Of a stretch of DNA of 64,000 bases, positions 36,021 through 53,565 are shown piece after piece. The position numbers and the translations under genes were made by a program. Origin of the DNA: Heterodontus francisci (lineage: Eukaryota); NCBI RefSeq assembly GCF_036365525.1, contig NC_090404.1, forward strand, positions 12,366,550 to 12,430,549, given 5' to 3'. The notes under the pieces are model-generated. The model ran no database searches, was not told the origin of the DNA, and saw only the letters and a program-made list of their open reading frames with translations. Each line of letters opens with the position of its first letter. Position 1 is the stretch's first letter.

Positions 36021-36066
36021 ATGAGGTCGGCGATTTCTCTCAGTCTGCTGCTGGTTTTCTTATGCC
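36021..36066 (+). CDS. IGHV: IgM heavy-chain VH leader exon (MRSAISLSLLLVFLC + C of R)
   Basis: ATG at 36021, hydrophobic signal peptide, phase-1 donor C|GTGAGT at 36067; joins the V exon as R-V-H-S. Confidence 0.96.
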
Positions 36067-36191
36067 GTGAGTAGTTTTATTATTCGAGTCTCTCACTATT
36101 ACTGTCTTAGTGTTAGTCACTCTCTGGACTGTTACAAAGTCAGGAATCATTTCACCAGGATTAATTCTCGGGGTTTTTGATATTTTTTCAG

Positions 36192-36496
36192 GTGTCCATT
36201 CGGATGTTGTGTTGACTCAGACAGAGGCAGAGAGCGGGGAACCCGGAGGCTCCCTGAGACTGACCTGCAAAACCAGCGGGTTCTCTCTTGGCAGCTACTA
36301 CATGTACTGGGTCCGACAGGTTCCCGGGCAGGGGCTGGAGTGGTTGGTTAGCTACTATACTTCATCCAGCAATGCTTACGCCCCAGAGATTAAAGATCGA
36401 TTTACTGCGTCCAAAGACACTTCAAACAACATCTTCTCTTTGGACATGAAGAAACTGAAGACCGAAGACACCGCCATCTATTACTGTGCTAGAGAC
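36192..36496 (+). CDS. IGHV: Immunoglobulin heavy-chain variable segment (VH) exon
   Basis: Acceptor TTTTTTCAG at 36191; [49 protein letters not shown]...[11 protein letters not shown] with canonical Cys, Trp and YYC; followed directly by an RSS. Confidence 0.98.
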
Positions 36497-36535
36497 CACA
36501 ATGAGAGGAACCAGGGCTGGACCCGTACAAGAACA
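36497..36535 (+). promoter_or_regulatory. VH 3' recombination signal sequence, 23-bp spacer
   Basis: CACAATG (36497-36503) + 23 nt + ACAAGAACA (36527-36535). Confidence 0.95.
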
Positions 36536-36925
36536 GATGGAGAGGGAATTCGACAAATTCCGTCTTAACCTGACGGTCAGTAATTGTACTAAATGTAATA
36601 TCAACGGCAGTGTTCAGAACCAGGCCATATACCGTCTCTTACAAAACTAACACAGTGAAAATTCAATGGTACAACTCTAAGACATTGACCGATGTACTGT
36701 AGAGCAATTTTGGCTGCGCTGATTTTTAACGTTACCAGTGTTAATAATTGTGGACCTGGATAAGATACTAGTTTCAATGTGATTGATACCTGTAGGGAAT
36801 TACTTGGGAATTACTTCACTTCCTACTGCATGGTGTAAACTTTTGGATATATTTTGAACTAGATAAAAAGTGAATTTTTATTTGAAATGAATGGTGATAG
36901 GCAGTGCTGAACAGAGAGTGAGTGC

Positions 36926-36953
36926 AGTATTTGTGCTGGTTCGTGTCACTGTG
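36926..36953 (-). promoter_or_regulatory. D1 5' RSS, 12-bp spacer
   Basis: AGTATTTGT (36926-36934) + 12 nt + CACTGTG (36947-36953). Confidence 0.94.
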
Positions 36954-36968
36954 GGTACAGCAGTGGGT
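36954..36968 (+). other. IGHD: DH1 diversity segment GGTACAGCAGTGGGT
   Basis: 15 nt between facing heptamers; all three frames open (GTAVG / VQQW / YSSG). Confidence 0.94.
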
Positions 36969-37006
36969 CACGGTGCTGTACAGAACGAGTTCCTCATACA
37001 AAAACC
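36969..37006 (+). promoter_or_regulatory. D1 3' RSS, 22-bp spacer
   Basis: CACGGTG (36969-36975) + 22 nt + consensus ACAAAAACC (36998-37006). Confidence 0.95.
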
Positions 37007-37316
37007 CCAGACTGGGAGTTTGCTCAAAACTGTGATCACCACCACGGCAGAGGGTCGAAAATAATGAGAAGTAAGTCAAACTAATTGGGAAACGGAATAT
37101 GGATTTGTAAAACTGTATAAAAGTCTCCTGTTTTATTGGTGATGATGTTACGCTAAATCAGCACAGATGCTTCAGAAGTATTCCAATCCCATTATAAATA
37201 TAATGAGGAGTACAAAGTGAATTATCTCTCTGATGTACTCTTGGGGGAGTCGGAATCAGGGGTTTGAGAGCGCTGTGGAATTTAATCTCTGTATTTTACA
37301 GTTAACAGTCCACCGG

Positions 37317-37344
37317 GGTATTTGACACGGTGTGTCTCACTGTG
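37317..37344 (-). promoter_or_regulatory. D2 5' RSS, 12-bp spacer
   Basis: GGTATTTGA (37317-37325) + 12 nt + CACTGTG (37338-37344). Confidence 0.92.
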
Positions 37345-37357
37345 ATATACTGGATGG
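37345..37357 (+). other. IGHD: DH2 diversity segment ATATACTGGATGG
   Basis: 13 nt between facing heptamers; all three frames open (IYWM / YTGW / ILD). Confidence 0.93.
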
Positions 37358-37385
37358 CACAGCAGTTACTGTCAATACAAAAAGC
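37358..37385 (+). promoter_or_regulatory. D2 3' RSS, 12-bp spacer
   Basis: CACAGCA (37358-37364) + 12 nt + ACAAAAAGC (37377-37385). Confidence 0.92.
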
Positions 37386-50304: not shown

Positions 50305-50696
50305 TTCCAAATCTGCAGGAACCGTTCGTGACTGTCCTCCTGCCCCCGGCAGAAGAAGTCTCCGCTCAGAGGTTCCTCTCCCTCACCTGCTTAGTGAGAG
50401 GTTTCTCCCCCCGAGAGATCTTCGTCAAGTGGACCGTCAATGACAAGTCGGTGAATCCCGGCAACTACAAGAACACAGAGGTGATGGCAGAGAACGACAA
50501 TAGCTCCTACTTCATCTACAGCCTGTTATCCATTGCAGCGGAGGAGTGGGCCAGCGGCGCTTCTTACTCCTGTGTGGTGGGACATGAAGCGATCCCCTTG
50601 AAGATCATCAACAGAACAGTTAATAAATCCAGCGGTAAACCGAGTTTTGTGAACATTTCCCTTGCACTGTTGGACACTGTCAATTCATGTCAATGA
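50305..50696 (+). CDS. IGHM: IgM constant exon Cmu4 plus secretory tailpiece
   Basis: Acceptor [29 protein letters not shown]...[17 protein letters not shown]...[11 protein letters not shown]...[27 protein letters not shown]. Internal donor G|GTAAA at 50635 serves the membrane form; the tailpiece has an NIS sequon and a penultimate Cys. Confidence 0.98.
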
Positions 50697-50724
50697 GAAT
50701 CTCTCGATTGCATTTCAATTCTTA

Positions 50725-50740
50725 AATAAAAACTAATAAA
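50725..50740 (+). terminator. Secretory-form polyadenylation signals (two AATAAA)
   Basis: AATAAA at 50725-50730 and 50735-50740, about 30 nt after the secretory stop. Confidence 0.8.
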
Positions 50741-51164
50741 GATCTTTTCTTCTAATCGCGATTTAAAAACTCAACCGCTCAATTAATTTTGCTTTCCATA
50801 TTTGCTGAGAGTCTGTCTACTCATCTCAGGTAGGATATTTGCAGGTCGCGGGTCAAGTCTTGTAGAACCAGTTCTCCCACCACAGGTTAGCGACAGTGCA
50901 AAGCTGATTCTTTACAGGATTCCAAAGAATAACATCAGCAACTTTCTTCTCGATGGGATGTTGGGGGGAAGGTTGAGGGGTGGGTTCGTGAAATCTGAAA
51001 ATTTATATTTTCCAACAAACCAACGCCGCACATTTAAATCCTCGTATCCCTGTTGTGTCTATTTCTTCATAATTTGGGTCAGTTTTAAATTACAGCATCG
51101 CAACCACTGGGAACTGAAGTGAGGGACAAACGCGAATATGAACTGCACCACAACCCACCATCAA

Positions 51165-51410
51165 AAAGAGGGGAATGGACAATTTATTAAACCACTCTAT
51201 TCCCACTTCCTAAACACAGAGAGGGACAGGGCAATTGTTAATCCACTGTAACTCCACTTCTCCAATAGAGACAGGACAAAGGCAATAGTGAACCGACTGT
51301 AGCCCCTCCCCCAAACTCCCCCGACAGAGAAAGGAGCAAGGGTATTTGTTAACCCACTATACTTCCACTGCCCCGGCAGAGAGATTGGAAGGCAACTGCT
51401 CTCGACTATA
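51165..51410 (+). repeat. Degenerate tandem repeat of about 57-60 bp in the Cmu4-TM1 intron
   Basis: Recurring GGCAATTGTTAATCCACTGTA..CCACT..CAGAGA, 4-5 units. Confidence 0.7.
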
Positions 51411-51789
51411 TGGACTCAGTTGCCATCAGTGCAAATTCGGCTTCTAGCTCACTGTGAGAAGGATTTAATCTTTCCACATGGGAATCATATTGTAAAATTT
51501 ATATCTGTGCAACATAATATCATTAAACTTTTCCCTCTTAATCTTATTCAAACAGATTGAAGTCTAATAGTCCTAATCTAACCGGTGATAGAAACCTCTG
51601 TTTATTCGTGCTTGTGCTCCTGGTTTTTCTGAGGCCCTTGAGTTACACTGCTGCATGCATTCTGCTGATGTCATGTTGCATCTCGCACAGAATACATTTA
51701 TCTCCAGAGCAGTAAAGAATATTCTCTACAATGGTACACCGTCAAGGTCATATCCGGTCATTGGTTCTATGTGGAACTGTGAACAATTA

Positions 51790-52700
51790 TGAAAATGCAC
51801 AAGCACATGGACACAAACACACACATAAACACAATCACATGCACAACTACGCACATACACCTACACACACGAAGAGACCCAAATGCTGATATAAATGCTC
51901 CCACAGTCACACATACAAACACAAACATCAACACTCACCTTAGTACAGTCTCAAGTGCAGAGAAACATAGACCTAAAAGCACTTACTAGGATACACATTA
52001 ATACACATACATGGACGTACATATTCGCACATTAACAGGTTCACACACGTGCACACAAATACATTAACACATTCACTCACACACAAATAAACATTAACAT
52101 TACTATACTGACACACAGACGTGGATAAACAAACACGTACATAAACACACACATTAGCACATATGTACACATAATCACACATTAACACATGCATTAATAC
52201 ATAAATGTAGACATCAACACGTAAACACACACGTTATCACACTTTTGGGGGCACAAGAAGATATAGACAAGCACATTAACACACCCTTGAAAACATTGAC
52301 ACATGAACTTACAGGGAAACATAAACACCTCCATTAACACATAAATACAGATTAACAAACTCATGGGGACACAAGCACACACATAAATAAATATTAACAC
52401 GTTCATACAGGCACATGGAGAGATCAACACAACACGCAGACACGCACACACAAACACAGATACACACAGGTGGTCACTTCAATACACATATCAACGCACA
52501 TTGGCACATTAACACAAATTAACATAAATGGGCACATACACACAGCCATCAACAAGCACATTAACACACTCACACTTGGGTAGACAAACAAACAAATAAA
52601 CTCATTCATTAACACTCACATACTTGCACAAATAGACACACAAACACCGAGTAATAAAAGCAAGAAATACTCATACACACATACACAAACACTACAGCGC
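51790..52700 (+). repeat. CA-rich low-complexity tract in the Cmu4-TM1 intron
   Basis: About 900 nt of ACAC/ACAT/ATTAACAC motifs. Confidence 0.9.
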
Positions 52701-53286
52701 AGAAACAGAAACGTCAGACTATAGACGAAAGCAGAATTCAAATGCACTATTTGAACAGACACCATTTCCATTAGTTTCCCTAATACATGCTGGACCTGCA
52801 ATCACAATGAAACACTGTTCTCACTTAGAAACTGAGATAAATTAATGATTTACCAACCACTTTCCTCACAAATAAACAAACAAGATTGGAACTTACATCC
52901 GATCTCTTACTCAGCACCATTGACAATCTCCAAATATGTAACTCCCTGAACCTATCTTCAAAATAATTGTTATCAATCAGTAAACCTTCCTCGATATCTA
53001 ACCATAAAATCCCTAATGATAGAACGAAATTTATCCAAAATAAAATAGTGCCTGACACTGAAGAAAAAAACAGACATATTTCCCAACACGAGGATCATAA
53101 AGGAAGCACGGCTGTGGAGTTAGTAACAGAGATAGATTGCTGAACGTGAGTAAATTAACAATTGATATACATTGAAAATTAAATTAGAAAACAAAATAAG
53201 GGAGAGAACTGCGAATGCAAAATAACAATCTTATATCCTGGATTAATAAACGATATAAATACATTTCCTCCTCTACATCTCCGTAG

Positions 53287-53414
53287 ATTCCACAGACCAC
53301 ATCTGGATTGAAGACAATGAGGAAGAGAGCAGCAACATCTGGACAACCGCTTCGACATTCATCATCCTGTTCTTCCTGAGCATTTTCTACAGTGCTGCCG
53401 TCACTCTGGTGAAG
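53287..53414 (+). CDS. IGHM: IgM transmembrane exon TM1
   Basis: Acceptor CTCCGTAG; DSTDHIWIEDNEEESSNIWTTASTFIILFFLSIFYSAAVTLVK (acidic spacer plus antigen-receptor TM motif); donor AAG|GTGAGA; in phase with the Cmu4 internal donor. Absent from the ORF track. Confidence 0.96.
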
Positions 53415-53556
53415 GTGAGACTATTCAATCCACTCACACTTCAATATGACTGAAGGTGTTAAAATATCTCTAAAAGTTTCATAGATTAAAAAAACTCTAA
53501 GATGAATGTTCCAAACCACGAAATCTCTGCTTCATTCTTTTATCCCTATTTTATAG

Positions 53557-53565
53557 GTCAAGTGA
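53557..53565 (+). CDS. IGHM: IgM transmembrane exon TM2 (VK-stop; cytoplasmic KVK)
   Basis: Acceptor CCTATTTTATAG then GTC AAG TGA. Confidence 0.93.
   Translation, partial: VK

What the first reader, a model, noticed from the sequence alone, without database searches (positions are those of the whole stretch)
36021..53565. Complete, rearrangement-competent shark IgM minilocus (V-D1-D2-J-Cmu-TM) in 17.5 kb
Seen: one V, two D and one J within 1.3 kb, plus a full Cmu with secretory and membrane exits. There are no stops or frameshifts and all splice phases are compatible. Established: cartilaginous fish use multicluster IgH organisation, and many horn shark clusters are germline-joined or pseudogenic. 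Inference: this copy is a functional split-configuration cluster. D, J and TM exons are invisible to ORF-based annotation.
Basis: partly seen in the sequence, partly recalled or inferred. Interest (0 to 1): 0.7.

Follow-up and report, generated by a model that had tools for sequence, protein, structure and literature searches.

The report
Working shark IgM antibody gene cluster
This is one intact shark antibody heavy-chain (IgM) gene with its V, two D and J pieces still separate in the genome, and sequencing data that are likely RNA show these pieces joined in frame and the constant exons spliced, so it is a working but ordinary member of a gene family described since the 1980s.

Summary
Confirmed and ordinary. 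Leader, V, D1, D2, J, four C exons, secretory tail and two TM exons lie at 36021-53565 with GT..AG introns, no stop or frameshift, and six recombination signals in 23/12-22/12-12/23 order. The membrane form is 91% identical (422 of 462) to a horn shark IgM C region. Five of the introns are spliced as predicted; the TM splice was not tested. About 55 sister clusters share the contig; 22 of 40 examined are split like this one. The scan has noted several joined or dead sisters before. More interesting, outside the window: five precise head-to-head signal joints in sister genes, one a D1-J inversion that keeps both products, four joining an IgM D signal to that of another V family.

The parts
35939..35948 (+). 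TATA-like box of the V promoter (inferred); no octamer in the promoter
   Evidence: sequence; contig cover begins in the bin 35865-36035, adapter loose ends at 35979 (contigs cannot show a start)
36021..36066 (+). leader exon, phase 1
   Evidence: joint 36066-36192 GT..AG; 126-base contig with 0 differences across it (X4 record 25)
36192..36496 (+). VH exon, open, both cysteines and the conserved tryptophan present
   Evidence: V-set 9e-19
36497..36535 (+). V recombination signal, 23 spacer (heptamer CACAATG)
36926..36953 (-). D1 5' signal, 12 spacer
36954..36968 (+). D1, 15 bases, open in all three frames
   Evidence: cores seen in junctions (table 5c)
36969..37006 (+). D1 3' signal, 22 spacer
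37317..37344 (-). D2 5' signal, 12 spacer
37345..37357 (+). D2, 13 bases
   Evidence: whole D2 in one junction (table 5c)
37358..37385 (+). D2 3' signal, 12 spacer (heptamer CACAGCA)
37710..37748 (-). J signal, 23 spacer
37749..37796 (+). JH (SMDYWGQGTMVTVTA); its first 20-27 letters occur in none of the fetched sister loci
45133..45429 (+). Cmu1
   Evidence: J-CH1 joint GT..AG
45642..45959 (+). Cmu2
49496..49804 (+). Cmu3
   Evidence: 116-base contig, 0 differences; nearest sister 8
50305..50696 (+). Cmu4 with secretory tailpiece (glycan site, penultimate cysteine); internal donor after 50634 for the membrane form
   Evidence: CH3-CH4 joint
50725..50740 (+). two AATAAA signals for the secreted form (predicted)
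53287..53414 (+). TM1 exon
   Evidence: aligns to the membrane tail of P0005; splice not tested on RNA
53557..53565 (+). TM2 exon (VK, stop; tail KVK)
   Evidence: splice not tested on RNA
53982..53987 (+). AATAAA for the membrane form (predicted)

Best explanation
This is an intact, split (unjoined) IgM heavy-chain minilocus of a horn-shark-type genome whose V, D1, D2 and J are found joined in frame, and whose leader and constant exons are found spliced, in sequencing runs that are likely RNA. RAG most likely joins V(23) to D1(12), D1(22) to D2(12) and D2(12) to J(23) by three short deletions inside 1.3 kb in developing B cells, with trimming and added letters at each joint. The V promoter then drives a transcript spliced leader-VDDJ-Cmu1-4; it ends in the secretory tail (shown up to Cmu4) or, as predicted, splices from the donor inside Cmu4 to TM1-TM2 for the B-cell receptor. 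Shown: anatomy, open frames, joined and spliced forms with this copy's letters. Inferred: the enzyme, the cell type, the membrane splice, the protein.
For: Anatomy and signals. 422 of 462 residues identical to the horn shark membrane IgM C region P0005; 67-70% to nurse shark and Triakis IgM. At 100% likeness, the 15 joints listed (of 78) all run from 36489-36497 to 37749-37755, with 23-28 letters on the shorter side. 20-letter words ending at 36490-36496 and starting at 37749-37756 occur in none of 40 V-J and 40 C loci fetched. Of the 12 junction rows shown (of 184), 11 are V-to-J, 10 distinct; 10 of 10 are in frame (chance 1.7e-5) and open by hand reading, CDR3 9-20 codons; 9 of 10 hold a recognisable D1 or D2 core, by eye. 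The twelfth row is a D1-D2-J joint. GT..AG joints for leader-V, J-CH1, CH1-2, CH2-3, CH3-4 in the runs (95% likeness). Upstream flank 33300-35864 has no cover in X1, X3, X4 and one 254-base contig of depth 6 in X2, while the spacers and intron start are partly covered at depth 3-540 in X1 and X2: this fits nascent RNA better than DNA. Same layout and within-cluster joining described for nurse shark (PMC2435157, passages).
Against: The four runs are one sample of one study, labelled 'RNA?' by guess, may come from the animal that was assembled, and are contigs, not reads. No single contig spans V to C, so phase from J to CH1 rests on the assembly; the 5' half of CH1 is shared with neighbours. 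Uniqueness was tested against 39 of the 54 other V candidates plus one locus placed by position; 15 weaker candidates were not seen. The junctions shown are the best supported 12 of 184, which favours abundant, selected clones. Three signals depart from consensus (V heptamer and nonamer, D2 3' heptamer), as in most sisters.
Confidence: 0.93

Rival explanations
1. The locus is an assembly chimera of several clusters, so the intact gene does not exist on one molecule.
For: CH1 is 98-99% identical to four neighbours at 12.04-12.26 Mb whose V exons are only 85-87% identical, while CH4 is closest to another cluster. Near-identical sister copies exist on the contig (L011/L012, L018/L019, L027/L028).
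Against: The high identity is confined to the CH1 tile (96%); tiles on either side are 82% and 94%, and to other sisters, which fits exon-level gene conversion. Intron contigs match at 0-1 differences along the J-C intron and in the CH2-CH3 intron, where sisters are 83-89% identical (only six sisters were fetched over the whole J-C intron).
Confidence: 0.03
2. The cluster is intact but silent, and the joined contigs come from an unseen near-identical sister or from DNA in the runs.
For: 15 of 55 V candidates were not scored; the runs are not on record as RNA.
Against: Spliced joints at five introns and exon depth 3-4 orders above intron depth; no cover on the upstream flank; best other V in the assembly is 93% identical.
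Confidence: 0.03
3. The gene makes only secreted IgM or its V is used mainly in trans-rearrangements to T-cell receptor segments nearby.
For: Many non-IgH V genes are interleaved with the IgM clusters, the nearest found at C34:12345807 and 12447038; IgM V to TCR-delta joining is reported as common in sharks (PMC12227049, passages). The TM splice was not tested.
Against: All 15 listed 100% joints go from this V to its own J (the tool can only show joints inside the stretch laid). TM1 and TM2 are open, with good splice sites, and 94-98% identical to most sisters.
Confidence: 0.04

Closest known systems
Horn shark (Heterodontus francisci) IgM clusters, V-D1-D2-J//C; membrane C region P0005 (UniRef name); described by Litman and coworkers 1986-88 (Kokubu 1988 not readable; seen through PMC2193153, parts 1-2 of 3 read)
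   Same: Cluster layout, four C domains, secretory and membrane exits, mixture of split and germline-joined sisters; 91% identity of the membrane form.
   Different: Not the cluster behind P0005: neighbours L056 (454 of 465) and L059/L060 (450 of 465) fit it better than the window (423 of 465). This copy has its own J start and a 3.5-kb CH2-CH3 intron with LINE remains.
Nurse shark IgM miniloci Groups 1-5 (PMC2435157, passages)
   Same: One V, two D, one J about 400 bases apart, several kb from Cmu1 (6.3-6.8 kb there, 7.3 kb here); joining within the minilocus.
   Different: About 15 loci there against about 55 candidates on one contig here; 67-68% C-region identity.
Nurse shark IgM1gj (P0008; PMC4279169, passages)
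   Same: Same tailpiece, IgM class.
   Different: IgM1gj is germline-joined and lacks Cmu2; this gene is split and has four C domains.
Antigen-receptor complex of elasmobranchs (PMC12227049, passages)
   Same: IgM clusters interleaved with many other V genes over about 10 Mb of one contig.
   Different: The terms horn shark and Heterodontus do not occur in that paper's main text; the identity of the interleaved V genes as TCR was not tested here.

Membership tests
Elasmobranch IgM minilocus | One V, two D, one J within about 2 kb, followed by one C gene | tested here: met
   no second V, D or J signal set in the window
Elasmobranch IgM minilocus | Signals compatible with the 12/23 rule at all three joins | tested here: met
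   23/12, 22/12, 12/23; the 22 spacer is shared by split sisters
Elasmobranch IgM minilocus | Four mu-type C domains, closest to IgM | tested here: met
   four C1-set domains; best named shark hits are IgM; human Cmu chains dominate the top solved-structure hits
Elasmobranch IgM minilocus | Secretory tailpiece with glycan site and penultimate cysteine | tested here: met
   21 of 22 last residues as in Triakis IgM
Elasmobranch IgM minilocus | Membrane form by splice from inside Cmu4 to TM1-TM2, tail KVK | tested here: inconclusive
Elasmobranch IgM minilocus | Somatic VDDJ joining within the cluster | tested here: met
   one sample, contigs only
Elasmobranch IgM minilocus | Protein pairs with light chain and forms monomer or pentamer | not testable with these tools
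   CH1 has extra cysteines near its start; no protein data
Germline-joined IgH cluster (VD-J, VDD-J, V-DDJ, VDDJ) or IgM1gj | At least one join already made in the genome | tested here: not met
   all six signals and three spacers present
IgW or IgNAR cluster | C region closest to IgW or IgNAR, with two, five or six C domains (recalled) | tested here: not met
   four C exons; no IgW or IgNAR name among the 53 hits

The most novel reading that the evidence does not exclude
The gene itself is ordinary, but read against it the sister clusters keep direct footprints of RAG in the germ line that include precise signal joints. [quoted passage not shown] Four identical copies (C34:6.70-6.73 Mb) fuse an IgM D1 signal to the 23-spacer signal of a different, probably T-cell-receptor, V family, with D, J and C gone: an inherited recombination between two receptor genes. 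These would be close to proof of RAG cutting in germ cells and would show that it also recombines across gene classes there.
Probability: 0.6. Interest if true: 0.55.

Novelty: new member of a known kind. Interest (0 to 1): 0.25.

Why it matters
For the finding itself: it adds one fully annotated, expressed IgM cluster with diagnostic V, J and C letters, a clean reference for assigning repertoire reads and mutations to a single cluster in a species with dozens. That is useful, not surprising. The side result matters more: in the two papers read on germline joining (PMC2193153, parts 1-2 of 3; PMC2193156, passages, where 'signal joint' occurs 0 times) the case for RAG in germ cells rests on coding joints and one hybrid-joint inversion; a retained precise signal joint beside its coding joint would be a more direct footprint. 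Two searches listed five papers; one was read, four were seen only as listings; Kokubu 1988 and other subscription papers could not be read, so absence from print is not established.

Tried and rejected
Self-comparison of the window: no second Ig cluster; the rest is LINE, SINE and simple repeats. Octamer in the V promoter: none; the only one is at 42503 in the J-C intron; a paper search on horn shark promoters gave nothing relevant. No RNA holder is on record for the stretch; the four runs are guessed to be RNA. Parts of the spacers without cover (37062-37232) say nothing. Depth cannot rank this cluster against sisters (contigs). Solved-structure search could not class the partner V family (weak antibody hits only). 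A weak extra 22-spacer signal on the minus strand ending at 36975 overlaps D1 and its heptamers and was not counted as functional. Kokubu 1988 (PMC454840) is not held. Search of earlier notes by the L017 sequence and by 'signal joint' found nothing on the signal joints. No structure or complex was predicted: the fold is not in doubt. Supplements were not opened.
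Full report
Observation. Reading 35001-56000 and cutting exons by their borders gives leader, V, D1, D2, J, Cmu1-4, secretory tail, TM1 and TM2 between 36021 and 53565, all on the + strand, all introns GT..AG, all phases compatible, and no stop in leader+V, the secreted form or the membrane form. Six recombination signals flank the segments: V 23, D1 12 and 22, D2 12 and 12, J 23. Seven signal-like sites fall in 36480-37790 against 0.013 per shuffle (300 shuffles) and 2 in the rest of the window. Pfam finds one V-set and four C1-set domains. 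The rest of the window is repeats.

Identity. A search with Cmu4 among longer proteins returned 53 hits; the best named shark hits are IgM of Triakis, nurse shark and horn shark. The spliced membrane form is 422 of 462 identical to the horn shark record P0005, and 67-70% (secreted form) to nurse shark and Triakis IgM. Neighbouring clusters fit P0005 better (454 of 465 for L056), so this is another cluster of the same kind, probably of the same species or genus.

Family on the contig. V, CH4 and CH1 searches of the own genome gave 55, 58 and 55 candidates, 40 scored each, all scored ones on C34 between 3.6 and 13.9 Mb. I fetched 39 other V loci and one placed by position. Of these 40: 22 split V-D1-D2-J, 1 V-DD-J, 6 V(D)D-J, 2 V-DDJ, 3 fully joined, 1 with a stop in V and no J in the stretch, 5 with signal joints. 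The set is biased to V genes like this one, and some copies are identical and may be assembly duplicates. Of 40 C stretches most have open exons; L043, L068, L072, L078, L079 show stops or shifts. So an intact split cluster is the commonest type here. About 130 weaker V hits of non-IgH or other kinds are interleaved over the same region, as expected for the antigen-receptor complex described in other sharks (PMC12227049, passages).

Expression and rearrangement. Four runs of one sample hold the stretch; they are contigs and only guessed to be RNA. At 95% likeness they show GT..AG joints at leader-V, J-CH1, CH1-CH2, CH2-CH3, CH3-CH4 (15 of 227 joints shown), exon depth 3-4 orders above introns. 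At 100% likeness on 33300-38400 the 15 joints listed of 78 all go from the V end to the J start. Words of 20 letters ending at 36490-36496 or starting at 37749-37756 are absent from all 80 sister stretches then fetched, so these joints belong to this copy as far as the fetched set goes; the rows from 36489 and 36497 are diagnostic on the J side only. The 12 junction rows shown of 184 give 10 distinct V-to-J junctions, all in frame, with CDR3 of 9-20 codons; by eye nine hold D1 or D2 cores among added letters, one holds all 13 letters of D2. One row joins D1 through D2 to J, a likely intermediate. Contigs also cross V into its signal and the J signal into J unchanged, and the upstream flank is nearly bare, which fits sterile or nascent transcripts rather than DNA. 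Constant-region contigs with 0 differences lie 8 (CH3), 5 (CH4 start) and 2 (CH2) letters from the nearest sister.

Chimera test. No 500-base tile of 35000-54500 exceeds 96% identity to any of 96 fetched stretches; 10 of 11 perfectly matched contig stretches are 83-91% identical to the best sister, one (56 bases at J) 95%. CH1 alone is 98-99% identical to four neighbours, which I read as gene conversion; this is inferred.

Mechanism. From established knowledge of V(D)J joining and the nurse shark study (PMC2435157, passages): RAG makes three deletional joins within the minilocus, in no fixed order, with trimming and N and P addition; productive joins are kept; the transcript is spliced to Cmu and ends in the secretory tail or the TM exons. 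Here the products are shown; enzyme, cell type and membrane splice are inferred.

Comparison and novelty. The layout is that of horn shark and skate clusters known since 1988 (PMC2193153, parts 1-2 of 3), with split and joined sisters (PMC4279169 and PMC5192425, passages). All testable features of an elasmobranch IgM minilocus are met but the membrane splice. It is a new member of a known kind; interest 0.25, most of it for the copy-specific demonstration and the side result.

Side result outside the window. A pattern for a head-to-head 12/23 signal joint finds exactly 5 places in the 6-Gb assembly, 0 for the reversed control (the pattern is built on the IgM D1 signal and would miss others). 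At C34:4251970 an 800-base block from D1 to the J signal is inverted; the block is 95.7-96.8% identical to split sisters, like its flanks; the coding joint has all 15 letters of D1 inverted, two palindromic letters and J from its first letter. At four places in 6.70-6.73 Mb, 99.9% identical to one another and in inverted pairs, the D1 signal is fused to a 23-spacer signal whose native copy follows an open non-IgH V gene at C34:6856002-6856304; the flank goes on at 93-95% identity for about 2 kb with an insertion. The four closest members of that V family all keep their own signal, so no coding joint was found and a deletion is the likelier route. Germ-line origin is inferred from presence in the assembly and from the fourfold copy; it was not tested on other animals or tissues, and a palindromic assembly artefact could inflate the copy number. 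Searches for earlier reports; nothing found, but Kokubu 1988 was not readable.

Noticed in passing
L017 / L090 (G000:C34:4251970-4252027, minus strand): Sister IgM cluster with an 800-base D1-to-J inversion: precise head-to-head signal joint plus coding joint (whole inverted D1, two palindromic letters, whole J). Likely a RAG inversion in the germ line with both products kept.
   Followed up: partly
L021-L024 (G000:C34:6700528, 6713795, 6716850, 6730113): Four near-identical IgM V genes whose D1 5' signal is fused exactly to the 23-spacer signal of another V family (native copy C34:6856002-6856304, probably TCR-type, untested); D, J and C are missing behind. Likely a germline deletion between two receptor genes, later duplicated.
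   Followed up: partly
L005, L026, L029-L031, L033-L039: Twelve sisters with partial or full germline joins: V-DD-J (1), V(D)D-J (6), V-DDJ (2), fully joined (3); L033-L036 carry a stop in V.
   Followed up: partly
window 45133-45429: CH1 is 98-99% identical to four neighbours at 12.04-12.26 Mb while V is 85-87% and flanking intron tiles are far lower: probable gene conversion of one exon.
   Followed up: partly
window 46186-48700: LINE remains on the minus strand in the CH2-CH3 intron; this intron varies from about 1.1 to over 4 kb among sisters.
   Followed up: no
window 37535, 37625, 44293, 44320: Single-letter differences in intron contigs of both X1 and X2, some at full depth: a second allele or assembly errors.
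   Followed up: no
L086 (G000:C34 about 13.7617-13.7621 Mb): Divergent cluster with only one D-like spacer between V and J (one 22-spacer signal, spacer 75% like D1-D2) in front of the C region L041: perhaps a VD-J or one-D type.
   Followed up: no
G000:C34:12345807, 12447038, 12454922: Non-IgH V genes 57 kb upstream and 27-35 kb downstream of this cluster; IgM clusters are interleaved with many such V genes over about 10 Mb.
   Followed up: no
L011/L012, L018/L019, L027/L028: Pairs of sister loci with identical V proteins and layout, in tandem units of about 70-150 kb: recent duplications or assembly duplicates.
   Followed up: no
P0011: A 232-aa protein filed under Aeromonas veronii is 85% identical to shark Cmu4: probably host contamination of a bacterial record.
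   Followed up: no
window 61183-63210: 675-aa open frame of a CR1-like LINE reverse transcriptase, 94% identical in part to a copy at 2921-3798: a young element.
   Followed up: no
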